A stretch of DNA of 64,000 nt from Adineta vaga. Taxonomy: Eukaryota > Animalia > Rotifera. The first letter of the stretch is position 1. Every line of letters starts with the position of its first letter. The stretch is from assembly GCA_021613535.1 (NCBI GenBank), contig CP075493.1, forward strand, positions 10,205,179 to 10,269,178, written 5' to 3'. The notes under the pieces are model-generated. The model was given only the letters and a program-made list of their open reading frames with translations, was not told the DNA's origin and did no database searches. This document shows positions 24,528-38,816 of the stretch, in pieces. The translations under genes were made by a program, and so were the position numbers.

Positions 24528-26377
24528 ATCACAATAGATTTCAAAACGGAATGATAAATAATCACATAAAATTCTAAAAATATAACATCAATCATCGATT
24601 TTATATAAATGTGTTTTTTTCTCTCTATATCGTTATTCAAACCTATCTTCAATTAAGTGTATATGTTTGAATGAAAGTGAATAGAAATTTCCATTTTCCT
24701 TCATTACCTATCCACATCCGCTCACTGAGCGCAAAAGGCAGCAGCTGTAGAAAATCATTATCAACCGACCGATAAAAGAACCCCTCGCATTTACTACACA
24801 AGATAATATAAAAAAAATATTTTTTTTCACAATATGAGAAAGATATAGAAACGTCAGAAATCATATGAAACGATTGAATGAAACATGAGCAATGGTGAAT
24901 GAAGAAGAAAATGAACGTAGGACTTGTCAAATTATTCTTCGCAGCTCACAACAGTATGACCTTTCCTTTGCTTTGCTTTCCTTTTCTTTTCTTTCTTTCG
25001 TTCTTCCTTTCACTCTCAACACTCTCGGTGTTCTTATTTGGACGTAAAAAAAAAGAATTGGACTAAGAATAAAAAAAAAGTGAGCGAATGGTACTATAAA
25101 TGATGAATGTATTCATTAGAATGGTAAAAGAAGCAATTCTGAATCCTGTAAGACAAGATCTTCTTTATATATACAAAAGAAAGATAATGGATAAATAAGA
25201 ATAATATGTTTTTAATGAATCTCAAAAGAACCAAAAATAATATTAACTCAAAACTTTGTATTATTGAATGAGTTTCTAATTCTAATAAATAGATGTTTCG
25301 ATATTCTTATAGTCTTTTCTCTTCTACAAATGAATAATACTACCTGTTTGTCAAAATCGATAGATTTGAAACTTATTTGAAGCAAAAAAAAGACAACTAT
25401 GTATATATATATAGAGTTAGTGAGTCATTCAACAAAGTATCGTGCTTGCTTCCTTGACAGTCAATGAGAAAGAGAAAGAGAAGAGAGAACTAACATAGTA
25501 AAGAACAAAATGCTTATATTTTTTTTCAATGGTTGATTGTTGAAACCAGTGAATAATAATACTCAGTTCGAAGGAGAACGGTTGGAAATCGAGTTCCAAT
25601 CAAACAAACGTACTACAACGCGCTCTATACATAATCGACAGAGTTCGCTAGTTTGCGTCGTAACTTTACGTTCCATACACTTTAAAAAAGATGAATAAAA
25701 CTTTTGATGATACTAATATATTATTCGACTCAATTCGATCTTATTCTCCACCAATCTATACTTACTTTTCTCTATATTCCTTAGTTTTGGAATGGTATAC
25801 ACGTATATATATTTTAAACCAATAATTTAGTAAGAAAAATAAAAAGTTAACTTATCCAATTATACTTTAACGCACTTCTATCTGTGGTTTACTCGTTAAT
25901 TCTGCTGTACAAATCATAACATTATTTTCATTAATTTAGTTTTATCACACATAGAAACTCATGGTGAAGATTATCATTTATTTGAAATACAATGACATAT
26001 TCATTATGGCGTTCTTCAGTTGTAGCTCTTTCTTAGCACATTTTTGTTATACAAGGTCATTATCTTCTATTCCACATCTATAATTCAGTTTATAATTAAA
26101 GATAACGTTCACATTTCTTAACAACTAAATTTTGAATAGAACCATCTTCAAATATACATTGTTTCAACTAGGTATTTTCATTGTATTTCTTTATGAAAGA
26201 ATATCTTTTTGAATTGTTAATTCCACATTTCGTAAAGACATTACTATTCAAATGAATTGATCAGTGCCTTAGATCTGACTATTTAATTAAATGATTTTCT
26301 ATTTTTGTAACTAAACTTTTTTCCATTGATCAATTACATTTGCATATTCATATTCCCCATATGGAAACAAGACACAA

Positions 26378-26401
<24 letters not shown>
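26378..26401. repeat. (GA)12 microsatellite in the KLC-POU4 intergenic region.
   Basis: agagagagagagagagagagagag at 26378-26401. Confidence 0.9.
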
Positions 26402-26408
<7 letters not shown>

Positions 26409-27967
26409 TTCGTGACACGGCAAGTAGTTTCACAGTTACCAGATGGTTGACGACGAAATTAAGAGTAACTCTATGCATACATATAACTCTTCTTCTTTTC
26501 ATCAATGAGATTACCGATCAAAAACGAAACTAAAGTACGTCATCGATTACCACCTGTTATCACTTGTAATTGTTCAAGTTTGACCCACCCATTCATTTCT
26601 TTCCTTTTTTGGTCATCTTCTCTGGAGACATGTCCACATATATCACTTGTTCTTTTTCACGTCACAATTAAAAACGAAACTACTAGAGGACAATCTATCA
26701 AGGGACTTATCATTGTAATTCAGGTAGATTGATCGATGAGAGTACGTTCATTTTCTTTTTTCGTTCCATCTGATTATAAATGAGAACAAGAAAAAAAAAA
26801 AGCAAATTGTTGTTTTTTTCTTTTGTTTTTCAATGCTTCAAGCTATTCACCGGCACGATAATGATTGACACAATTTCTCTCATTCATTTTTCATCTAACA
26901 CCGAATGTCAACAAATCTTGTCATCAAATTTTATATATGTCTTATCTCAATAAGAATAACATCAATACGGAAAAAGAAAAACGATGGTAATCAATACGGT
27001 CGAACAATTATGATAAGCAATAGTCTCAAGTGTCATCTGAGAATACTCTCACAAACGGACAATGTCATATAGACATAGCAACAGTAGTCGTCAATCGATT
27101 GATGACGTGACGAAAATGAATGAATGCAAAGGGCGTGTTTCACTCCTCATCATCATCGTTTTCATCGTGACAGACAAGAAACAGAAATGAGATCAGAAAT
27201 AGTTTTTTCTAAAAGAAAAGAAAATGTTCCATCTGTTCTTTTTCTCATTTAAACAAAAAACAGTTCAAAACTAGTAGTTTACTTCAAGCAAACATATCAG
27301 CAGACCGAGAATACACACACAAACACATGCACATGCCTACACCTTTTGCTTCCGATCTGATGCGTAACAATGTATTAAAAATTGATTCGTTTTTCTTTTA
27401 CCTATGCGGCTGCCTATGTTGATCATTGCCTTTAGGGCAAGTACACAAGAATAATATTTCAGTTAATGAGAAACGGAAATCTTCCATCTCAACAAGTATC
27501 TAGTAAATATGAGATCAAAGAGGCGAATGATGAGTGCGACAGAAAGAGAGAAGAGAAAAAATAATTAACGCAAAAAGTTTTACTTTTCTGATCTATGAAA
27601 ACAAACTGTTCTTAATATTTAAAATTAAGATTAATGAATTATCTTTTTGAACATTTAAAAAAACGGAGCGAATAGTATTGTATCCGTTTTTCCCGTTTCT
27701 TCCTATTATTGTATGCATCTATATATTCTTTATTTAACATGTAGAAAAAAAAGTAGCATAACAAAGACAAAGAAGAAAAGAATTGAATATAACGTGAATA
27801 GTTGATGATGCTTGTTGTGCACCGTTCATTTGTTTAAATAGGCTTTTACGAGTATTAACTTATTTATATCATTTCTTTTTTCTTATTGTGCATGACAACA
27901 AAAAAGCGAAAGAATATTAGAGTTCAATTGAATTAAAGTAAGAGAGAAGATAATACTAGAAGAGAAA

Positions 27968-27992
27968 ACGAGAGAGAGAGAGAGAGAGAGGA
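27968..27992. repeat. (GA)n microsatellite followed by GGAAGGGAAGGAAAAGGAG purine-rich tract, about 700 bp upstream of the POU4 ATG.
   Basis: cgagagagagagagagagagaggaagggaagg at 27968-28000. Confidence 0.85.
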
Positions 27993-28418
27993 AGGGAAGG
28001 AAAAGGAGATGAAGAACATCCAACTGATCGTCGCCTTGCGTGTCGCTTGCGCTTGGGGAAATCTTCTTCTTCTTCTCTCTTTACTCTGGTAAAGATGACT
28101 GACAGATGGATGAATAGAAAATTTTTATTCATTGGTTGATGAGAAAATTGTTTGACCAATGAGAAAATTTCTCTTCATTCTCTAGCAGGTAAATTTTCTT
28201 TCTCTCATATTTAATCACAGAAAAAAAAATGAGTTCTTTCTCATTTTTTATTTATCATTAATCACTCACGGAATGAACGTTAGTAACACATAGAAGAAGA
28301 AGAAAGAAAAACTCATACTTTCACCATCACAACCATAGGAAATGCAGTAGAAATAAAAACTAGGAATAACCATTATTCAACACATTGATTATATCTTTCT
28401 CTTTTTCTCCCTTTCTCT

Positions 28419-28443
28419 TGTGTGTTTGTGTGTGTGTGTGTGA
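28419..28443. repeat. (TG)n microsatellite about 220 bp upstream of the POU4 ATG.
   Basis: cttgtgtgtttgtgtgtgtgtgtgtga at 28417-28443. Confidence 0.85.
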
Positions 28444-28661
28444 ATATTGAAAAATCTTCTGATCAAATGCATTTTTCTTCTTCTTTTTCTTTTTAAGTAT
28501 GTATATATTTATTTATTATTTAGTATATACATAAAAAACATCAACAAAGATATATAATTAGTGAAGTGTGTCAAGAATTATTTCGATTCATTGATAATAA
28601 TAATGAAATGTTAACAGACAAGTAAATTATTTATTGAAACAAATCAATAATAGAAATACAA

Positions 28662-29895
28662 ATGCTTAATAATACAAACATATCAGCTGTTGATCAAGCA
28701 ACATCAAGTAAATCATCCTTTTCGAATACAACAAGTGGACTTATGAATTCAAATTCAATTGGAAATACGAATGGTCGGTATTCACCAAGTAATTTCTATC
28801 GAGCTGCAGCTGTAGCTGCTGCAACAAGTGATCCTAATAATCGACGATATATGCCTAGTACACCGGTATACATTTGTATTTTTATCAAAATAAGAAACAG
28901 CAACAACATATATTTCTTTTTCTAGTGGCCTAAATCAAATTGTTTTGGCGATAGTTTTAAATTTGAACCAAATGTATGTGTACAGAAAAGAAGATGTTCA
29001 AAAAAGTATTTGAAAATTTCTTATTTTAGAGTCTATTTTGTCCAACCATTGATGATAATTTTCTTCGTCAAGCTGAAGCATTATCAAAACCTGAATCATC
29101 ATCCCTTTATTACCCATCGCCCTTTGCTTGTTCATCAGCAGCAGCCACATCATCATATCATCTACGGGCAATGTTTATTCTGGTTCATCAACAATGGAAT
29201 CTCATCTTTTATCTGATCATAATCAACATAATCATCATTCGCATGTAAATTCCAATTTACATCCATTTTATCAACGTCAATATGCTGCAGCTGCTGTTGG
29301 TGTTTTACCTGGTATGGTTGTTGGCATGCATCATCACAGTGTTGTCGGTAGTCTTGTTCCATCTCATGAACTTGATGTTGATCCACGTGAATTAGAATTG
29401 TTTGCTGAACGTTTTAAACAACGTCGAATTAAATTAGGTGTTACTCAAGCGGATGTTGGTCATCAATTGTCGAAATTAAAAATGCCCGGCGTTGGTTCTC
29501 TATCTCAATCGACTATATGTCGATTTGAATCACTTACATTATCACATAATAATATGGTGGCATTAAAACCAGTTCTTCAAGCTTGGTTAGAATTTGCTGA
29601 AGCAGAAATGCGACAGAGAAAAAAAGATGAAATGAATGGCAATATGATTGGTTTAAGTGGACATATTAGTTCAAGTGGAAGTTTAATTGATAAGAAACGT
29701 AAACGTACATCGATTGCTGCACAAGAAAAACGTTTTCTTGAATCGTGTTTTATTCAACAACAAAGACCAAGTGGAGAACGTATTGCCCAAATAGCAGATA
29801 AACTTGATTTAAAGAAGAATGTTGTTCGTGTTTGGTTTTGTAATCAACGACAAAAAAATAAACGTTTACGGTTTGCTGCTGGTCAATCAGCGTAA
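28662..29895 (+). CDS. POU4F: POU class IV homeobox transcription factor (Brn-3 / unc-86 / acj6 family): POU-IV box, POU-specific domain and POU homeodomain.
   Basis: Exon 1 at 28662-28865: MLNNTNISAVDQ...RRYMPSTP. Micro-exon at 28923-28964: WPKSNCFGDSFKFEPN. Exon 3 from 29032 encodes the POU-IV box SLFCPTIDDNFLRQAEAL. POU domain in ORF 29128-29895: DPRELELFAERFKQRRIKLGVTQADVG...GVGSLSQSTICRFESLTLSHNNMVALKPVLQAWLEFAE...KRKRTSIAAQEKRFLESCF...DKLDLKKNVVRVWFCNQRQKNKR, nearly identical to the Brn-3 consensus. Stop at about 29893-29895. Confidence 0.9.
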
Positions 29896-30002
29896 CATAT
29901 ATGAGTATTTGAGACCGAAAGAAGAAAGATCGAATAAGTCCGTCCATTTTAATGAGTTTATATATTCGTTTTTCTTTGTCGTTCTTTTTTAACTGTTGTC
30001 AC

Positions 30003-30024
30003 TCTCTCTCTCTCTCTCTCTCTT
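30003..30024. repeat. (CT)n microsatellite in the POU4 3' flank.
   Basis: ctctctctctctctctctctct at 30003-30024. Confidence 0.85.
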
Positions 30025-30214
30025 TTTCTCTGATATTGTTGTCTCCTTTTAGCAGTTAATCTCTATTTTCTAGCACAAAGTGTGTTTTCTTTGTTCTATA
30101 ACAATATTGATCAATTGGAATTTTATTCTATTTTTTATAGACAACGTATTAACAGCATTTATTCATCTAATCAATGAAATGTACAAAAGCCATATATAAA
30201 TATATACACGTATC

Positions 30215-30945
30215 TTAAATAGAATTTTCTGTTCGAGGTGAATTTTGTTGCTGTTTTATTATGTGTTGAAGAAATTCAATGATAAACATTTGTAAACGTA
30301 CATCTTGTGGTTTATTCGTTGCATGCATACATGGTACACCAACTTTTTCTAATCTCGTTTGTTGTTCTAACATTTTTTGATCAAGATCTAAAACAATTTT
30401 CATATCGAAACGTTGTTGTTCATCGGCAACTCTTTTTACAAATGCCTAAATGATTTTTAATTGAAGATCAAAATTTAAGAATAGAGAAATAAACATACAT
30501 CAAATTCACGTTTATTTGCTGATTGAAGAAGATTTAAATGTTGTGGTCTATCAGCACAACGAGCTTCATCTTCGGAATGTTTTCGAATTAAATCTAATTC
30601 TTGTTCTAAAGAACCTTCAACAGTTGTTACTTAGAGGTATATTTTCTCGTACCTTTTGCTTGTTTAACTAATTTTTGTCGTTCATTGAATAATGTTTTCT
30701 CAGTTCGTGTTTGTATCTCTTGTAAACTATTGATAATATCAATAACATTTGTATCAAGTGATACGGTTATCAAATTTTCAATGAGATTATCTTTTTCAAA
30801 ACGTTCTTGTAATTTTCTAAATGATTTATTCAACGATATAAAATCCTTTCTAATCAAACGTTTCTTTTTTCTTCTTACGATGGTAAATCATTAATCATTA
30901 GTTTTAATTGTTCTGAAATTTGTTGACGATTCATATCTTAAACAC
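30215..30945 (-). CDS. Small (about 200 aa) coiled-coil protein, three or more exons; family unresolved.
   Basis: Minus exons: MNRQQISEQLKLMINDL at about 30895-30945; ORF 30627-30857 (KDFISLNKSFRKLQERFEKDNLIENL...KLVKQAKG); about 30420-30600 (VTTVEGSLEQELDLIRKHSEDEARCADRPQHLNLLQSANKREFD); ORF 30215-30403 (...QTRLEKVGVPCMHATNKPQDVRLQMFIIEFLQHIIKQQQNSPRTENSI*). GT..AG introns of 30-60 bp. Confidence 0.5.
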
Positions 30946-31290
30946 AAATATATCAATGAAACATATATATATATATATATATATTCTATTCAAAAATTTG
31001 TTAATTAATATTTATTAAAGTATAAAAATACGTTATACAAATAAAAATATTCGTAAAACGAACAATTATGTTAGAAAGCAACGAATAATAAAAACAAACA
31101 CTGTTGACATGTTAAGAAATGAGTTCACCGAAAGACTTAGATAAATTAGTAAGAAGTTAAAACGAAAGATTGCGAGGATAGGGTTAGAAAAAAAATAAGA
31201 GCACCAATTAAAGCAATTTGTCATGCAAATCGTCAGATTTATTAAAATTGTGTGTTCATGGTTTCATTGTTTGCTGCTTTATTTTGACGC

Positions 31291-34200
31291 TAAGGAAAAA
31301 GAATATGACTAAAACATGGACACAAAGGAGTTTTCTCTTACTTCACGTCGTAGAGCTTGATTGGATTCAAAAAGACTTTTTGCTCGTGCAATTTCCACTT
31401 CATATGGAACATCAGGTATGGCGAAATCGATTGCAAATTTAATCGCCAACAGAATATGCTATAAAACAATCCTAATTACTTTCATAATTACTTCTACAAA
31501 TCATATACCTCAGCTGCGATAAATAGAAGAATATATTCTACATCCGTATACGTCGAAAAATAAGCACGAACTGACGGTTGCATAGCAATTAATGCTGTAT
31601 TTGTAACAATTGCAATTGAACTTAATATATCAAAAGCATAATGCCAACTTCCAATATTACTAGCTGGTTGAGCAAATGGACGTTGATAAACGTAACAATA
31701 TTTGAATGCATCAGCACGAAGTTCAAAAATGTTATTAATCAATCCGCAAATAGTTACCCAAGGAAATACCTGAAATAAATAAACAAATATTTTCAAAAAA
31801 TATCTCAGAATATCTAAGAAATTTACAGCAGAAAATAAAGCGATATAACCATATTGTTCGAAGATAGTTAAATAATCTCCATATGTTCCCTAGAAACGAA
31901 GAAAACGAATTCATATGTTCAATTCTCACTTTCTCAAATAATGTTAATCATTACTTCAAATGGTGTTAAAGTTTTCGATTGTTTAATAACTTCGCTAACT
32001 TTTGTATCGACTGATCCTGTTCGAACTAATTGATTCTTTTTCACTCGTTTGAATATATATGGAAGAACTTGTTCAGTAAATTTTAATATAATAGCATTAA
32101 TAATAACCAATGATGTAAGTAACTAGAAGAGATTTTTCAATGAAGAAAAGTTCGTTTATCAAAACCAAAGAACTTACTTGAACAACATTAGCATAGTTAA
32201 CATTGAAAAATGCTTGATAAAATAACCCGACAAAACTGTTGACAAAAAAGAAGATGAATAGTTTCGATGTTAAATTATTTTCATAGGCAGTTTGAAGACG
32301 ATGATTTTCTAAATAAAAACAAACCTATATTGTTGACTAATAACCAAAGCAAGATGTTTAACATACCAAAATCTGTTAAGAATGTTGCTAGTTTTTTGTA
32401 GATTAATTTTACAGGAATAACTAGTAATGAATAACCAGTTGATGGTATCATACGTCTTACTTTCGTTTCAACAGGTATTCCAGAGTTAGTTAATGGATAA
32501 TTTGTATTCGTACGTTCTTGAATGCCATAATAAGTAAAATAAAGTGTCATTGCAAATACTAAACATCCCATAACAATTGGATAACTAACAAGATATTTCT
32601 TTATTTGTCGTTTCCATCTAAAAAATCTGTACATGGAAAGGAAAATAGATCACAGTTGTTAACATACGCTGGATAAAGTGGTTCTAATCTTCCTGTAATT
32701 GGTGATGGTTGTAATTCTCCAAAATAAGCTGGACGTGGTCGTTCAAATACTTGTAAATCAAGTGTACCCCATTGATAAGCTAATTTATTTGTTAAACGTT
32801 TCCATCGTTCCATCTAAATTATCAATTTATCATTGATTTTGAAAGAGAAAATACGGATACATACAAATATTGTCCACCAGATAACATTGAACAAGCAGAA
32901 GAATGAATATCTAGCAAAATCCGAAATTGGCAAAAAACTAACCAAGACACCTAGAAGAAACGATAAAATTGTAGAGAATAGTTAGAATTAAAGCAGTTAA
33001 ACAAGACGAGAATAGATAACACTAATTAATTACGTATTTATTTTTAAAGATATTCATTGATTATGCCAGAATTTGTATTTACTATAAAAAATAAAACATT
33101 GTATCTTGCCAAACAATTAGGTCGTTTTCAAGTATGTGTTTTTTTACACGATTTACTGTCAAAACTACAGGTCACAGAAATATCATGACTCATTGTACGA
33201 AATATTGATAGGCAGTTATAATGATATATTTTTTTGTTTTTATTACGCCTGATTGGTTTTGTTTTTTTCGCATACTATGTTCGATGATTGTTGATTATAC
33301 CGCAAAATATATAACATAATATCATTTCTTTTCTCATTCTACGCATGGCTAATGAGAGATATATGATTATATTCTCAGAATTAACTGTCAATGATTCATA
33401 AATATTATGAAAGAGAATATCTGTTAGAAAATTTTTTTTGTAATTGATATGCTTACCAAGAATAGATGTTGGTATGAGAGCTTTTGTATAATATTCCAAG
33501 AATGCAAAATAAAATGCAACATTATCGCCAAAATAGTTTCGAATTTTATCTAAATAATAAATAATAATTGACATATTTTTTGAATAGTTTACTTGCTTAC
33601 GAATATCTTGCGATTTAAATATTGAAAGTTTCGATTTAAACCAATCATGTTCAAGTAATTTAATATCTTCTTTTTCATGTAATGGAAAGAAATTTACAAC
33701 AAAATGCAGATCATTAAGTATCGCAACTAAATAAAACATGAAAATGAATAAAAGAGAAATCATTTGATGATATATTTCATTTACGCATAGTATCATTTTC
33801 AGGTGAAAATGATTTTGTTGGTACACCTGGTACTGCATGTTCATTTTTCATTGGACGTAGATTTTGAATTTCTTCAAAGACAATTCGTTGCTTTTCAGAT
33901 TTGAGTAGAATGTCACCAGGATTTTCTAATTTCGAATGAATATGAGTAATTAGTTTAAGATAATCGATATTCACCTGAATTCTGAAAATGTTCAATATCC
34001 GCAACAAGAAATTCCGTTAGACCTTTCGTTGTATCCCATTTTTGTATTCGTAGCTCTTCGGCGCCAACTAATAAACGTTCTAGTGTTGCACCGATAACAA
34101 TCAAACTATTCTATACAATAGACAAATGAGCTTTTTTCGAATGGAAATAAATAACAATGTTTGTTTTAAAATAGCTCCGAAATCTCAAAAAAAGCTTATT

Positions 34201-34390
34201 GAGAATTTCTAGTTCCTCTTACTCGATTTTCGGTGTTCGACTCGAATCGAGCTAGTAATCCAGCACCTTCATCTTCATATTGATTTGCAGTTAATCGATG
34301 AATAATCCATTCTTTGGTTACTGCTGGTGTTGTGGGTGAGAGTTGAAGAACTACTAAAGGTTCAAAATCATCCTTCTCATCGAAAGACAT
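31291..34390 (-). CDS. ANO: Anoctamin / TMEM16 family Ca-activated channel or scramblase (ANO10/ANO8-like size), multi-exon.
   Basis: N-terminus MSFDEKDDFEPLVVLQLSPTTPAV (ORF 34196-34390). IRNYFGDNVAFYFAFLEYYTKALIPTSILG (ORF 33275-33844) matches anoctamin [20 protein letters not shown]. Pore-region exon VFPWVTICGLINNIFELRADAFKYCYVYQRPFAQPASNIGSWHYAFDILSSIAIVTN (ORF 31494-31796) matches ...LLNNWVEIRLDAQKF...RRP...DIGIW. Last exon HILLAIKFAIDFAIPDVPYEVEIARAKS...* at about 31291-31446. Confidence 0.8.
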
Positions 34391-35064
34391 CTGTCTACGG
34401 ACAATTTAGGTCGATTAAATAAAGGTTACAACGCATCAATATACGCATTAGCGATATAGCGAAAAACAACCACACGATGATTCATTCTTTTCTTTGATTA
34501 GTCGTAAATAATCCAATACGGAAATATAATCAAATTGAACTTAAGTTTCTTAATTTTATTGATAATCTAACTTATTTATACACATTCATAATGTTCAAAT
34601 ATTTCTTTCGAAATAAAATTCCTCCGATCAAATAGACGTTCAATCCATAGTTTACCCTTTCCAGGAAATCTTTCCATTGCACTTGCACATACATAAACAG
34701 AATTCATTTATCTTTAAATCTTTTTTTTTGTCAATGAAAATTCTGCATATGATGTTAACTTATATAAGACAGATTAGTCTGATTCATTATGAAAGATCAA
34801 ACTTTTTGACTGATGCAGACTCGATGAATCAATCTACAGTCCAATGATGTAAAATGACTATTGAAGAGCATTTTGATTGTAAGACGAACAAACAACTACT
34901 TAATTTCACTTGTTTTCTTTCTTTCTTATTCGATTAAGTAGCAGTTTGTTCGTCTGAAGTCAGTGGGCTCATATGATTATTGATTATGAGATCTGAGGAC
35001 TGTTAGAATTCGAAATTCAATTTATATTCTCATTTGGTTTTCGATTTTAGATTGACATCTGACA

Positions 35065-35760
35065 ATGAAACATAATAACGTCATCCCAAATGCTCACTTT
35101 CATAAAAAGTGGCAATTACATGTCCGTACTTGGTTCGATCAACCAGGCCGTAAAGTACGACGTCATCAAAAACGTTTAAACAAAGCTCAACGTGTTGCTC
35201 CTCGACCAGCCAAAGGTTCATTACGGCCAGTTGTTCGTGGTACCACACGTCGTTATAACATGAAAGTACGTTCTGGACGCGGTTTTTCTTTGGATGAAAT
35301 TCGTGCTGCTGGTCTTCATCCAACCTATGCTCGAACCATCGGTATTTCAGTTGATCATCGACGACGCAATAAATCCACTGAAGCTTTTCAAGTAAATATC
35401 AATAAAAAATATTGAATTAATTAAAAAAAAATAATTTTTTTGATTTAGCTTAATGTTCAACGTCTCAAACAATATCTCGGTAAACTTATCTTGTTTCCAT
35501 TGAACGCCGATAAACCTAAGAAGAACGATGCTAAACCTGAAGAAACCAAATTAGCTGTTCAACTTAAGAAGCAACGTGTTATGCCAGTTAAACAACGTGT
35601 TATTCGTGAAAAAGCTCGACCTGTCAACGATACTGATACGAAATTTCAAGCTTTTCAAGCTATACGTATGGCTCGTGCTGATGCTCGTTTAATTGGTCTA
35701 CGTGAAAAGAAGGCTAAACAAGCAGCTGAAGACGAAAAGAAACCGAAAAAAGAGAAATGA
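35065..35760 (+). CDS. RPL13: 60S ribosomal protein L13 (eL13), two exons (35065-35391 and 35449-35760).
   Basis: [84 protein letters not shown]...[17 protein letters not shown]. Intron gtaaat...tgatttag. Second exon [17 protein letters not shown]...[33 protein letters not shown]. Near-collinear with human RPL13. Confidence 0.93.
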
Positions 35761-35904
35761 GCATTTTCTTTTGTTTTTGTAACCAAATGTTTAGATTGAA
35801 AAGAATCGAAATAAAGAAAAAGAAGATCATAGTTCGCCGACGAAATCAATATGTCGGTTCGAGAAAAAAACTAACAAAAATCTTGTTTTGTTTTTATAGA
35901 TTTC

Positions 35905-36795
35905 ATGAATCTTTTACTATCTCGCCATATTCTACGTCCTTCTTTTCTTTCAAAAACTTTTCTTCATAATTCTATTCTACCGTGTTTATCATCAATAAAA
36001 CAGTTTTCATTATCATCATCATCATCATCATCATCATCAACTAATAATCAGTATAACAAATCACAATCATCAAATAAGAATGATTTCGAAAAAGAATTTA
36101 AAAAATTTGAACGAAATGAAAAAAATCGTCGAGTTAATATTGCACTTTATATGAGTTCTATGGCAATTCTCATGCTTGGATTAACTTATGCATCTGTTCC
36201 ACTCTATAAAATGTTTTGTGAAGCAACAGGATTTGATGGAGTTATTCGAAAAACTGACGATGAGGATATAATATCAGCAAATGTCAGACAATTACCTCAA
36301 CGAATGGATAAAGAAAATCCGATGATTCGAATACATTTTTCTTCAACACCTTCATCACTTTTACCGTGGACATTTGAACCTGAACAACGTGAAATTTCTA
36401 TTCAACCAGGTGAAACAGCACTAGCTTTTTATCGCGCAAAAAATGAATCGAATCGACCAATTATTGGTATTGCAACATACAATGTTCAACCATCACAAGC
36501 AGCATTTTATTTTAATAAAATTCAATGTTTTTGTTTTGAAGAACAACGTTTAGAACCAGGCGAAGAAATTGATATGCCCGTCTTCTTTTATATCGATCCA
36601 GATTTTATACGAGATCCAAATTTACAAGGTGTTAATGATATTAGTTTATCTTATACATTTTTTGAAAGTAAAGGTACCGAATATCTTGCTTTAATGGGCG
36701 GAGATCCAGCAATGGCAAATATGAAATTTAAACCAAGTGAAACATTACCATATGCACATCGACACAAAGAAAAGATCATAACAAATCCTTCTTAG
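35905..36795 (+). CDS. COX11: Cytochrome c oxidase assembly protein COX11 (mitochondrial copper chaperone), apparently a single exon.
   Basis: ORF 35905-36795: TM helix MSSMAILMLGLTYASVPLYKMFCEATGFDG; conserved copper-binding CFCF motif in KIQCFCFEEQRLEPGEEIDMPVFFYIDPDF. S-rich presequence-like N-terminus. Lies 145 bp downstream of the RPL13 stop. Confidence 0.9.
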   Translation: MNLLLSRHILRPSFLSKTFLHNSILPCLSSIKQFSLSSSSSSSSSTNNQYNKSQSSNKNDFEKEFKKFERNEKNRRVNIALYMSSMAILMLGLTYASVPLYKMFCEATGFDGVIRKTDDEDIISANVRQLPQRMDKENPMIRIHFSSTPSSLLPWTFEPEQREISIQPGETALAFYRAKNESNRPIIGIATYNVQPSQAAFYFNKIQCFCFEEQRLEPGEEIDMPVFFYIDPDFIRDPNLQGVNDISLSYTFFESKGTEYLALMGGDPAMANMKFKPSETLPYAHRHKEKIITNPS

Positions 36796-37592
36796 TTTTC
36801 TATGTGTATATAAATAGAATTGTTCTTTTTTCTTTTTATTTGTCTTCAATATGGAAACACATTCGAACGATGTATAATTGAAAATAAACATTTTCAGTCC
36901 AATTCGATTGTCAATCAGCAGAAAACTCTTTTCGTATTTGAATTACTCTCAACTTTGACTTATATGATAGTTTGAATGAATTACATGCTCAAAGCAGATA
37001 TATCAAGTTTTGCTAAACAAGATCGATATTGTACTATAAGAGATGTATGTATGTTATCAATTATGATTGCATTGAACTATTCATTAATGTTGTAAACGAA
37101 AGTATTCATTAACTAAGATTTTGTAGTGAGATGGATTGAAATCATAGAAATTTATTTTTCGAGAAAGCAGATTTTTAATTTTCGCAATTGAGTATACAAA
37201 CTTATCATCGTTTCGTTTCATGTGTTCATCCACGTCAATCATTTCTTCTGATACCACTTATATTAAACGAACAAATTGTTTGGCAAACATCATTTTCCAA
37301 TTCATTTAGTTTCTTCTATTTATTCATTGTTTCCTACGCTATGCCAATTATTTTCATAACTATTTTACATGTTTCCATTATTTATTATTTGAGAAAATAT
37401 TGACAAATTCATCGTCATCACCGTCTTACTGTTACAACATATTACTCTCATAGCTGCAAGAAATTCTTGATGTTTAATATGTTATTGAATAAACAAAAAC
37501 AAAACACCTGTCGCACGATATTTCAGTATATTATAAAATGATGGATAGATTTTTTTATTGTTTAAAGAAAAGAAAATCATACATTTGATAAC

Positions 37593-38816
37593 TTAATTCT
37601 TCTTACTAATTTTATTTAATGTTTTCCAACATAGATGAAAAGCTCGTGGTACATGATAACATCCTTTCCATTTTCCACCTTTTAAACTTAATAAAACTTC
37701 ACCCTGTCGATTTAAATATCCAAATAATTCTCCACCTTCGGCATCAACAAAATGATCAATTGTATATTTTTGAACTTTATTCAACCAAGGAAGTAATTCA
37801 TTCATCCGATCGGGTTGATGATCAATTGCTTTAATCAATGCGATTAATGTCTCAAGATGAACCCACCATAATTTTTGATCCCATTCAAGTTGTTGTGGTG
37901 GCCGTTGTTCGATATCAAGAAAATAGAAGATACCATTATATTTTTCATCCCAACTATAATTTAATATTTTCAATAATGTATCAATACAAATTGATGCTAA
38001 TTGTTGATCGTTTTGTCGTTCAGCAATATCAAGTAAAAACCACATGGCTTCTATTCCATGTCCAGGATTTAATAAACGACCTTCGAATGAATCATTTCTT
38101 GATCCATCTTTTGCATTGATATATTCTAAAATTAATCCTGAATCGTTTTGACGAAATTCTTCGATGATTTCTTTGATACATTCTTTTGTTAAAGTTTGAA
38201 TTAATTGTTTATCAATAAGATGTTCTAATTCCATAGCTAAATTACACATCATCATTGGTAAAGCAAAACTTTTTAATTGTCGAGGTGATAAAGAACTGCC
38301 TTTATTCCATTCACCTTTGGGATTTGACCGACGTTTTTGTATATCATCAAATGTTTCTAGAGCAATCTGTTTATATTTTTCAGAATTCATTTTATCGATC
38401 TTTGCCATTTGACCAAATGCCATTGAGGCAAAAACACTGGAAAATATATTGTATGGTTCAATTAATGGTTCACCATTTTGTGTTAATGAAAAATACCATT
38501 GACCATTAGTTGGATGGCGACCATATTTTTCCAAAAATATTGCTCCATGTTGAGCAGTTTTCAACCATTCTTGACGTTCTTTATCAGAAACATTCAAGTC
38601 AAGATCTTGATATAGTTTTGCAAACATCCATATCTGTCGAGCTTGTAACCAAATAAATTTATCTGTGTCAAAAACTTTACCATCACGATCCAGACATGTA
38701 AAATAACCACCATATTCTCGATCGATCGAATGACTAAGCCAAAACGGTATAATATTAGTAAGAAGATAATCACGATAATAATGTGACCATAAAGTAAAAT
38801 CATAAGTCTCACTCAT
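37593..38816 (-). CDS. RENBP: N-acyl-D-glucosamine 2-epimerase (renin-binding protein family, AGE superfamily), intronless 407 aa.
   Basis: ORF 37593-38816: MSETYDFTLWSHYYRDYLLTNIIPFWLSHSIDREYGGYFTCLDRDGKVFDTDKFIWLQARQIWMFAKLY...GHGIEAMWFLLDIAERQ...GGKWKGCYHVPRAF. Collinear with animal RENBP and the bacterial AGE alpha6/alpha6-barrel family. Confidence 0.85.
   Translation of the reverse strand: MSETYDFTLWSHYYRDYLLTNIIPFWLSHSIDREYGGYFTCLDRDGKVFDTDKFIWLQARQIWMFAKLYQDLDLNVSDKERQEWLKTAQHGAIFLEKYGRHPTNGQWYFSLTQNGEPLIEPYNIFSSVFASMAFGQMAKIDKMNSEKYKQIALETFDDIQKRRSNPKGEWNKGSSLSPRQLKSFALPMMMCNLAMELEHLIDKQLIQTLTKECIKEIIEEFRQNDSGLILEYINAKDGSRNDSFEGRLLNPGHGIEAMWFLLDIAERQNDQQLASICIDTLLKILNYSWDEKYNGIFYFLDIEQRPPQQLEWDQKLWWVHLETLIALIKAIDHQPDRMNELLPWLNKVQKYTIDHFVDAEGGELFGYLNRQGEVLLSLKGGKWKGCYHVPRAFHLCWKTLNKISKKN

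What the first reader, a model, noticed from the sequence alone, without database searches (positions are those of the whole stretch)
28662..29895. POU-IV (Brn-3/unc-86) locus: frame discontinuity between the POU-IV box and the POU domain
The gene is unambiguous: POU-IV box SLFCPTIDDNFLRQAEAL, POU-specific domain and homeodomain near-identical to Brn-3. However, the POU-IV-box exon (from 29032) is in a different reading frame from the POU-domain ORF (29128-29895). Both frames are open across about 29095-29265. The box frame then hits a stop at about 29262, while the POU frame is closed upstream of about 29095. Joining them would need an intron whose length is 2 mod 3. The only candidate I could find is a 107-nt intron (29184-29290) with a weak donor, CTG|GTTCAT. 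The alternatives are a non-canonical intron, a sequencing indel in the His/Ser-rich linker, or an isoform that lacks the POU-IV box.
Basis: seen in the sequence. Interest (0 to 1): 0.55.

Follow-up and report, generated by a model that had tools for sequence, protein, structure and literature searches.

The report
One missing base splits rotifer POU4
The break in this rotifer Brn-3/POU4 gene is a single base missing from a run of serine codons, not a hidden intron; it is most likely a consensus error in the Adineta vaga reference assembly, so the finding is ordinary, though it caused a truncated gene model in GenBank.

Summary
The window comes from the Adineta vaga AV20 chromosome assembly and carries a class IV POU gene. 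Its POU-IV box frame is open from 29030 to a TAA at 29246-29248. Its POU-domain frame is open from 29095 to 29895. The two frames are offset by one base.

Its donor at 29183 joined to the acceptor at 29290 gives 108 nt, which is 0 mod 3. Every GT-AG pair that does join the frames would remove residues conserved in all bdelloid orthologues.

In 15 of 15 other bdelloid loci the stretch is one uninterrupted exon with a length that is a multiple of 3 (mode 150 nt). The window has 149 nt. The deficit lies in a serine-codon repeat: ACA TCA TCA T-A TCA TCT, where relatives read TCA TCA TC(A/C) TCA TC(A/T). Adding one C after 29156 gives a three-exon, 372-aa protein, the same length as the A. steineri orthologue.

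Both sides of the break are under strong purifying selection. The break is therefore either an assembly error (favoured, about 0.6) or a very recent real mutation (about 0.3). GenBank models the gene as a truncated 233-aa protein, UJR16381.1. Interest is low.

The parts
28662..28865 (+). Exon 1 of the POU4 gene: 68 codons, MLNNTNIS...RRYMPSTP, phase 0 donor CCG|GTATAC
   Evidence: Aligns from the start Met to the N-termini of the A. steineri, A. ricciae and Rotaria orthologues. Splice-site context was checked.
28866..28925 (+). Intron 1, 60 nt, GTATAC...TTTCTAG
   Evidence: The A. steineri intron at the same place is 58 nt.
28926..28973 (+). Micro-exon 2: 48 nt, WPKSNCFGDSFKFEPN.
   Evidence: The 16-aa segment WSKSNCFGDSFKFEPN is present in all full-length bdelloid orthologues. 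The DNA aligns to A. steineri and to the A. ricciae-like contig. It is flanked by AG|TGG and AAT|GTATGT.
28974..29029 (+). Intron 2, 56 nt, GTATGT...TATTTTAG
   Evidence: The length of 2 mod 3 carries the frame from exons 1-2 (0 mod 3) into the box frame (2 mod 3).
29030..29156 (+). Exon 3, part upstream of the frame break (box frame). The POU-IV box SLFCPTIDDNFLRQAEAL is at 29030-29083, followed by SKPESSSLYYPSPFACSSAAATSS.
   Evidence: A. steineri exon residues 1-32 hit window frame 2 at 90.6% identity. dN/dS against A. steineri is 0.075.
29150..29163 (+). Serine-codon repeat that carries the one-base deficit: TCA TCA T-A TCA TCT. The missing base, most simply a C, falls between 29156 and 29157.
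   Evidence: DNA alignments. The anchor-distance test gives 149 nt in the window against multiples of 3 in 15 of 15 other loci. Restoring one C gives a 1119-nt CDS of 372 aa.
29157..29895 (+). Exon 3, part downstream of the frame break (POU frame), through the stop TAA at 29893-29895. The POU-specific domain is at about 29383-29601 and the POU homeodomain at about 29695-29865.
   Evidence: 94% identity over 243 aa to A. steineri. One search places Pfam Pou at residues 203-275 and Homeodomain at 307-363 of the restored protein. dN/dS is 0.024.
29246..29248 (+). Premature TAA reached in the box frame if the sequence is translated as deposited. The product would be 156 aa and would lack the POU domain.
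29194..29895 (+). The CDS as annotated in GenBank for A. vaga (I4U23_003284, UJR16381.1): 233 aa starting at MESHLL. It is a truncated single-exon model.
   Evidence: Exact-sequence look-up.

Best explanation
The locus is the A-type (A. steineri CAF3846857-like) class IV POU gene of Adineta vaga. It is an ordinary three-exon gene: exon 1 at 28662-28865, a micro-exon at 28926-28973, and exon 3 at 29030-29895. The expected product is a 372-aa Brn-3/unc-86/acj6-type transcription factor with a POU-IV box, a Ser/His-rich linker, a POU-specific domain and a homeodomain.

The deposited sequence lacks exactly one base inside a (TCA)n serine-codon repeat of exon 3, between 29156 and 29157. That deficit alone produces the frame offset. 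There is no intron in the linker.

Shown here: the one-base deficit, its position to within about 10 nt, the absence of an intron, and purifying selection on both sides.

Inferred: the missing base is most likely a consensus or polishing error of the ONT-based, haplotype-collapsed AV20 assembly, possibly at a site where the two haplotypes differ in repeat length. On this reading the animal makes the normal full-length protein. The 233-aa GenBank model is a downstream consequence of the missing base.

The confidence of 0.6 applies to the whole statement including the artefact inference. The one-base-deficit, no-intron part alone I hold at about 0.95.
For: Source of the window:
- Two window ORFs are identical to A. 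vaga UJR16385.1 and UJR16386.1 on an 18.1-Mb chromosome.

One continuous exon in relatives:
- All full-length bdelloid orthologues read straight through box, linker and POU domain.
- Prokaryote-style single-ORF calls on metagenome contigs, such as P0013, P0014 and P0011, span the linker in one ORF.
- The distance between the anchors YYPSPFACSS and LHPFYQ is 0 mod 3 in 15 of 15 other bdelloid loci (mode 150 nt). It is 149 nt in the window.
- The codon-level alignment places the gap in TCA TCA T-A TCA TCT.
- Adding one C gives 372 aa, the same length as the A. steineri P0001 protein.

Selection on both sides of the break:
- dN/dS against A. steineri is 0.024 downstream and 0.075 in exon 3 upstream of the break, at a downstream dS of 0.34 (0.53 for the short upstream block). 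Exons 1+2 give 0.315.
- There is no second disabling lesion, so the break is either very recent or not real.

Assembly method:
- AV20 was built with NextDenovo on ONT reads, collapsed with purge_dups, and polished with HyPo using Illumina and PacBio reads (PMC8494291). From general knowledge, such assemblies retain occasional indels, particularly at heterozygous short-repeat sites.

Annotation:
- The deposited model is the truncated 233-aa ORF.
Against: - No reads, transcripts or independent A. vaga assembly could be examined, so the artefact reading is not shown.
- The site is not a homopolymer, and the assembly was polished with short reads.
- In about 12 kb of synteny with A. steineri, this is the only real coding exon with a frame break. 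DGCR6, anoctamin, RPL13e, Cox11 and GlcNAc-2-epimerase are all clean. The assembly is therefore not generally indel-ridden.
- A. vaga keeps an intact B-type ohnologue (P0009, I4U23_017638, 405 aa), so a real loss-of-function allele could be tolerated.
Confidence: 0.6

Rival explanations
1. The one-base deletion is real, either heterozygous or fixed in the sequenced A. vaga clone. It would be a very recent frameshift that inactivates the A-type POU4 ohnologue, an early step of ohnologue loss in a degenerate tetraploid. It would be tolerated because the B-type ohnologue is intact. The mRNA would encode a 156-aa N-terminal fragment carrying the POU-IV box and, at best, a little POU-domain-only protein from the internal ATG at 29194.
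For: - The sequence stands in a short-read-polished chromosome assembly.
- The site is not a homopolymer.
- Neighbouring genes show no frame errors.
- An intact B-type paralogue exists.
Against: - There is no second lesion.
- dN/dS is 0.02-0.08 on both sides of the break over a dS of 0.34, so any inactivation must be extremely recent.
- Every other bdelloid examined keeps this copy intact, including both A. ricciae copies and five A. steineri isolate sequences.
Confidence: 0.3
2. A canonical or non-canonical intron of length 2 mod 3 lies in the linker and joins the two frames.
For: GT-AG pairs that would join the frames do exist: 29130-29290, 29173-29339, 29173-29351, 29245-29339, 29245-29351 and 29067-29290.
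Against:
- Each frame-joining pair deletes 30-75 codons that are conserved in all bdelloid orthologues and that evolve with low dN/dS.
- None of the 15 other loci has an intron here.
- The two real introns of the gene are 56-60 nt, AT-rich and full of stops. This stretch is open in the POU frame and aligns codon for codon with relatives.
Confidence: 0.02
3. The true product is the short 233-aa protein lacking the POU-IV box, as annotated in GenBank. It would be analogous to the short Brn-3a and Brn-3b isoforms of vertebrates. The upstream exons would no longer be part of the gene.
For: - The GenBank model UJR16381.1 equals window 29194-29895.
- Short box-less isoforms are described for vertebrate brn3a and brn3b (bioRxiv 10.1101/2021.05.26.445703).
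Against: - Exons 1 and 2 and the box part of exon 3 are intact, keep their splice sites, and are conserved as coding sequence.
- In bdelloids the POU-IV box lies in the same exon as the POU domain, so the vertebrate route of an alternative start inside the intron would not skip it.
- The model is what a gene finder returns when it meets a frameshift.
Confidence: 0.04
4. Programmed -1 ribosomal frameshifting, or transcriptional slippage, restores the frame during expression.
For: The two frames overlap by about 150 nt.
Against: - No X XXY YYZ slippery heptamer lies in the box frame in 29095-29246, and there is no homopolymer at the site.
- Relatives need no recoding, so the feature would be lineage-specific and unselected.
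Confidence: 0.01

Closest known systems
Adineta steineri POU domain protein CAF3846857.1 (P0001, 372 aa) and its A. ricciae counterparts CAF1505442.1 and CAF1003685.1 (373 aa)
   Same: They share the same three-exon structure, the same micro-exon, POU-IV box, Ser/His linker, POU-specific domain and homeodomain. Amino-acid identity is 86-90% overall and 209 of 212 residues downstream of LHPFYQ. The flanking genes are syntenic: DGCR6, anoctamin, RPL13e, Cox11 and GlcNAc-2-epimerase.
   Different: The window is one base short in the serine repeat, so its ORF is split. The orthologues are intact.
Adineta vaga I4U23_003284 (UJR16381.1), the GenBank model of this very locus
   Same: It is identical in sequence to window 29194-29895.
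   Different: The model omits exon 1, the micro-exon and the POU-IV box. The comparative evidence here indicates that a 372-aa product is the ancestral and probably the real one.
Class IV POU factors: vertebrate Brn-3a/b/c (POU4F1-3), Drosophila acj6 (I-POU), C. elegans unc-86
   Same: They share a POU-specific domain plus a POU homeodomain, with 60-72% identity over the roughly 47-65% of the query that aligns (the POU domain and, for some hits, part of the linker), and an N-terminal POU-IV box (definition of the box in 10.1101/2021.05.26.445703).
   Different: In vertebrates the POU-IV box lies in a separate first exon. Here an intron sits immediately before the box, which shares an exon with the POU domain. 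Function in rotifers is untested.
Adineta vaga B-type ohnologue I4U23_017638 (P0009, 405 aa)
   Same: It is the paralogous POU4 from the bdelloid genome duplication, with the same architecture and 81% identity over aligned positions in the multiple alignment (75% by BLASTP).
   Different: It has a longer Ser run and an extra VAHHHAA and His-rich insert. It is intact in the assembly.

Membership tests
Class IV POU transcription factors (Brn-3 / unc-86 / acj6) | POU-specific domain | tested here: met
   Pfam PF00157 Pou: E 3.2e-28, 97.9 bits against a cutoff of 27, residues 203-275 of the restored protein. PDB sequence hits include the Oct-1, Brn and Pit-1 POU domains.
Class IV POU transcription factors (Brn-3 / unc-86 / acj6) | POU-type homeodomain C-terminal to the POU-specific domain | tested here: met
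   Pfam PF00046: E 3e-17, residues 307-363.
Class IV POU transcription factors (Brn-3 / unc-86 / acj6) | N-terminal POU-IV box | tested here: met
   SLFCPTIDDNFLRQAEAL at 29030-29083 is near-invariant in all bdelloid orthologues. I compared it with the vertebrate box only from memory. No profile for the box is available in Pfam.
Class IV POU transcription factors (Brn-3 / unc-86 / acj6) | Closest named relatives are class IV rather than classes I-III, V or VI | tested here: met
   Beyond rotifers, the named hits are 'POU domain, class 4, transcription factor 1/3' and 'inhibitory POU protein' from molluscs, arthropods and vertebrates.
Class IV POU transcription factors (Brn-3 / unc-86 / acj6) | Uninterrupted reading frame from the start codon to the homeodomain | tested here: not met
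   As deposited, the frame breaks at about 29156 and a TAA follows at 29246. Adding one base restores it.
Spliceosomal intron in the linker | GT-AG (or GC-AG) boundaries of a length that restores the frame, with the removed sequence absent from orthologous proteins | tested here: not met
Frame-joining pairs exist, but they remove conserved residues present in all orthologues.
Decayed (unitary) pseudogene | Several disabling lesions and relaxed constraint (dN/dS approaching 1) | tested here: not met
   There is a single lesion. dN/dS is 0.024 and 0.075 on the two sides of it.
Assembly or consensus indel error | Reads or independent assemblies of the same clone disagree with the deposited base string | not testable with these tools
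   No A. vaga reads or alternative assemblies were reachable. An exact-pattern scan of metagenome contigs for an A. vaga-like allele found nothing. The assembly method is known from PMC8494291.
Programmed -1 ribosomal frameshift site | Slippery heptamer X XXY YYZ in the upstream frame, conserved among relatives | tested here: not met
   No heptamer lies in 29095-29246. Relatives have no frame offset.

The most novel reading that the evidence does not exclude
The one-base deletion is real and fixed in the A. vaga laboratory clone. One of the two POU4 ohnologues would then have been caught at the very first step of pseudogenisation. Alternatively it would now be expressed as two separate polypeptides: a 156-aa POU-IV-box fragment and a 233-aa box-less POU-domain protein. 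That would be a natural split of the regulatory N-terminus from the DNA-binding domain of a Brn-3-type factor.
Probability: 0.25. Interest if true: 0.25.

Novelty: already known. Interest (0 to 1): 0.1.

Why it matters
The matter is mostly one of curation.

- The GenBank model of A. vaga I4U23_003284 (UJR16381.1) lacks 139 N-terminal residues, including the POU-IV box, because of one missing base. Anyone cataloguing homeobox or POU genes, or ohnologue retention, in bdelloids from this annotation would miscount or misdescribe the gene.
- The corrected model has three exons including a 48-nt micro-exon, and encodes 372 aa.
- If the deletion proved real, it would be a small, datable example of ongoing ohnologue decay in an ancient asexual.
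- Neither outcome changes what is known about POU-IV factors.

Tried and rejected
- I enumerated all GT-AG, GC-AG and AT-AC pairs across 29060-29420.
- Exact look-ups of window products in the contig index found nothing: the 233-aa ORF and two neighbouring ORFs. The A. vaga P0009 look-up also failed, so the A. vaga assembly seems not to be in that index. The species was identified through the cluster look-up instead.
- I looked up the 255-aa TTG-start ORF, the 193-aa ORF, the 87-aa read-through of exon 1 and the 156-aa frameshifted product. None is on record, so there is no independent sighting of the frameshifted allele.
- An exact-pattern scan of metagenome contigs for the A. vaga flanks, allowing 0-12 bases in between, gave 0 hits. 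The closest environmental relative is only 91% identical.
- A search for a -1 PRF slippery site or a homopolymer at the break found none.
- Literature searches for rotifer POU-IV found nothing relevant.
- I ran no further search on other genes of the window to measure an assembly-wide indel rate. Only about 12 kb of synteny was checked.

Full report
**What is in the sequence**

- The frame that reads SLFCPTIDDNFLRQAEAL (codon starts = 2 mod 3) opens after the TAG at 29027-29029 and runs to a TAA at 29246-29248.
- The frame that reads the POU-specific domain and homeodomain (= 1 mod 3) is closed by a TGA at 29092-29094 and open from 29095 to the stop at 29893-29895.
- The mechanical ORF list gives 29128-29895 from a TTG start.

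The exon starts at 29030, and the box-frame stop is at 29246 rather than about 29262.

**Where the window comes from**

A protein search with a provisionally joined product returned bdelloid rotifer POU proteins as the best hits: Adineta steineri at 86% identity, then Rotaria species. Class 4 POU and inhibitory-POU proteins of molluscs, arthropods and vertebrates followed.

Two intronless ORFs of the window are identical to A. vaga proteins on an 18.1-Mb chromosome.
- 35905-36795 (+) equals UJR16385.1 (I4U23_003288).
- 37593-38816 (-) equals UJR16386.1 (I4U23_003289).

The window is therefore from the AV20 chromosome-level assembly. According to its paper, that assembly was built with NextDenovo on ONT reads, collapsed with purge_dups, and polished with HyPo using Illumina and PacBio reads (PMC8494291).

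**Gene structure**

The alignment with nine full-length bdelloid orthologues shows a 16-residue segment, WSKSNCFGDSFKFEPN, between the first exon and the POU-IV box. In the window it is a 48-nt micro-exon at 28926-28973 (WPKSNCFGDSFKFEPN), with the boundaries TTTCTAG|TGG and AAT|GTATGT.

The gene is laid out as follows:

| Feature | Coordinates | Length |
|---|---|---|
| Exon 1 | 28662-28865 | 204 nt |
| Intron 1 | 28866-28925 | 60 nt |
| Exon 2 (micro-exon) | 28926-28973 | 48 nt |
| Intron 2 | 28974-29029 | 56 nt |
| Exon 3 | 29030-29895 | 866 nt as deposited |

The A. steineri gene has the same layout, with an intron 1 of 58 nt.

**The frame break is a one-base deficit, not an intron**

- In every full-length orthologue the box, the Ser/His-rich linker and the POU domain are read continuously.
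- Single-ORF gene calls on metagenome contigs span the linker. An example is P0013, MTKPDSSSLYYPSPFACSSATATTSSSNNVYPGSSSMESHLL....
- A DNA alignment of the window with A. steineri and an A. ricciae-like contig shows the window one base short, modulo 3, in the serine run.
- I measured the distance between two invariant peptide anchors, YYPSPFACSS and LHPFYQ, in 15 other bdelloid loci: A. steineri, the A. ricciae-like contig and 13 metagenome contigs. The distance is a multiple of three in all 15 (138-186 nt, most often 150). It is 149 nt in the window.
- Written in codons, relatives read ACA TCA TCA TCA TCA TCA ACA or GCA TCA TCC TCA TCT TCA ACA. The window reads ACA TCA TCA T-A TCA TCT ACG GGC.
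- Inserting one C after 29156 gives ...ACSSAAATSSSSSTGNVYSGSSTMESHLL... The CDS becomes 1119 nt and encodes 372 aa, exactly the length of the A. steineri protein. One environmental relative, L010, even shares the STGNVY motif.

**The intron hypothesis**

Joined to the acceptor at 29290, the interval is 108 nt, so it does not change the frame.

The GT-AG pairs that would join the frames are 29067-29290, 29067-29395, 29130-29290, 29173-29339, 29173-29351, 29245-29339 and 29245-29351. Each would delete 30 or more codons that are conserved in all relatives. Those codons align with relatives codon for codon. I reject this hypothesis.

I found no -1 frameshift heptamer and no homopolymer of four or more bases at the break. 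Recoding is therefore also rejected.

**Is the gene alive?**

Against A. steineri:

| Region | Codons | dN/dS | dS |
|---|---|---|---|
| Downstream of the break | 212 | 0.024 | 0.34 |
| Exon 3 upstream of the break | 34 | 0.075 | 0.53 |
| Exons 1+2 | 84 | 0.315 | 0.35 |

In exons 1+2 the C-terminal 30 residues of exon 1 are invariant. There is no second lesion. Both halves have therefore been kept as coding sequence for essentially the whole time since the two Adineta species split. The break is either extremely recent or not real.

Pfam recognises Pou (E 3e-28) and Homeodomain (E 3e-17) in the restored protein. The PDB sequence search finds the Oct-1, Brn and Pit-1 POU domains.

**Artefact or real mutation?**

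These tools cannot settle the question.

For an artefact:
- The assembly is ONT-based and haplotype-collapsed.
- The site is a trinucleotide repeat, where haplotypes often differ in length and polishing can leave a hybrid string. This point rests on general knowledge.
- Every other bdelloid keeps this copy intact, including both A. ricciae copies and five A. steineri sequences.

For a real allele:
- Short-read polishing was applied.
- The site is not a homopolymer.
- In about 12 kb of synteny with A. steineri, the POU exon is the only real coding exon that changes frame. DGCR6, anoctamin, RPL13e, Cox11 and GlcNAc-2-epimerase are all clean.
- The intact B-type ohnologue (P0009, I4U23_017638) could buffer a loss.

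I put the artefact reading at about 0.6 and a real recent frameshift at about 0.3.

An attempt to find an independent A. vaga-like allele in metagenome contigs by exact pattern gave nothing. None of the frameshift-specific products is on record elsewhere.

**What the databases already say**

The exact 233-aa product starting at the ATG at 29194 (MESHLL...QSA) is GenBank UJR16381.1, 'hypothetical protein I4U23_003284 [Adineta vaga]'. The locus is therefore already annotated, but as a truncated single-exon model without exons 1-2 and the POU-IV box.

Vertebrate brn3a and brn3b do have short box-less isoforms that start inside the intron (bioRxiv 10.1101/2021.05.26.445703). In bdelloids the box lies in the same exon as the POU domain, and the upstream exons are conserved. 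The short model is therefore best read as a by-product of the missing base.

**Verdict**

- The gene is an ordinary member of a well-known family in a published genome.
- The only useful outputs are a corrected gene model (three exons, 372 aa) and a flag on one base of the reference. Interest is low.

Noticed in passing
window 28926-28973: A 48-nt micro-exon (WPKSNCFGDSFKFEPN) lies between exon 1 and the POU-IV-box exon. It is flanked by 60-nt and 56-nt introns and conserved in all full-length bdelloid POU4 proteins.
   Followed up: yes
window 29194-29895: The GenBank annotation of this locus (I4U23_003284, UJR16381.1) is a 233-aa N-terminally truncated model. It is worth correcting, or at least flagging, in the reference annotation.
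   Followed up: yes
window 26250-38366: This block is collinear with A. steineri contig CAJOAY010001468.1. The genes are POU4 (+), DGCR6-like (-, about 30221-30818), anoctamin (-, about 31318-34402), RPL13e (+, 35056-35727), Cox11 (+, 35905-36795) and N-acylglucosamine 2-epimerase (-, 37593-38816). None of the neighbours shows a frame break.
   Followed up: partly
window 26250-28660: About 2.4 kb upstream of the POU4 start codon still aligns to A. steineri at 74-82% DNA identity. That is as good as or better than expected from the synonymous divergence (dS 0.34). It may be conserved regulatory or 5'-UTR DNA of a developmental gene.
   Followed up: no
window 37593-38816 (-): The intronless N-acylglucosamine 2-epimerase gene sits in a 90%-identity protein cluster of 64 members that spans Adineta and Rotaria and includes many environmental contigs. 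That is unusually high conservation for bdelloid genera this far apart.
   Followed up: no
window 28420-28443 and about 29997-30020: A (GT)n microsatellite lies upstream of the POU4 gene and a (CT)n microsatellite lies just downstream of it.
   Followed up: no
(P0001-P0009): Bdelloid POU4 proteins fall into two types. The A-type has a short Ser run and about 372-378 aa. The B-type has a longer Ser run and an extra His-rich SVHHH-type insert (present in all but A. vaga P0009), and about 401-407 aa. The VAHHHAA segment does not separate the types: the Rotaria A-type proteins have it too, and it is missing only from the Adineta A-type sequences, including the window. Both types occur in Adineta and Rotaria species, consistent with ohnologues from the bdelloid genome duplication.
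   Followed up: partly
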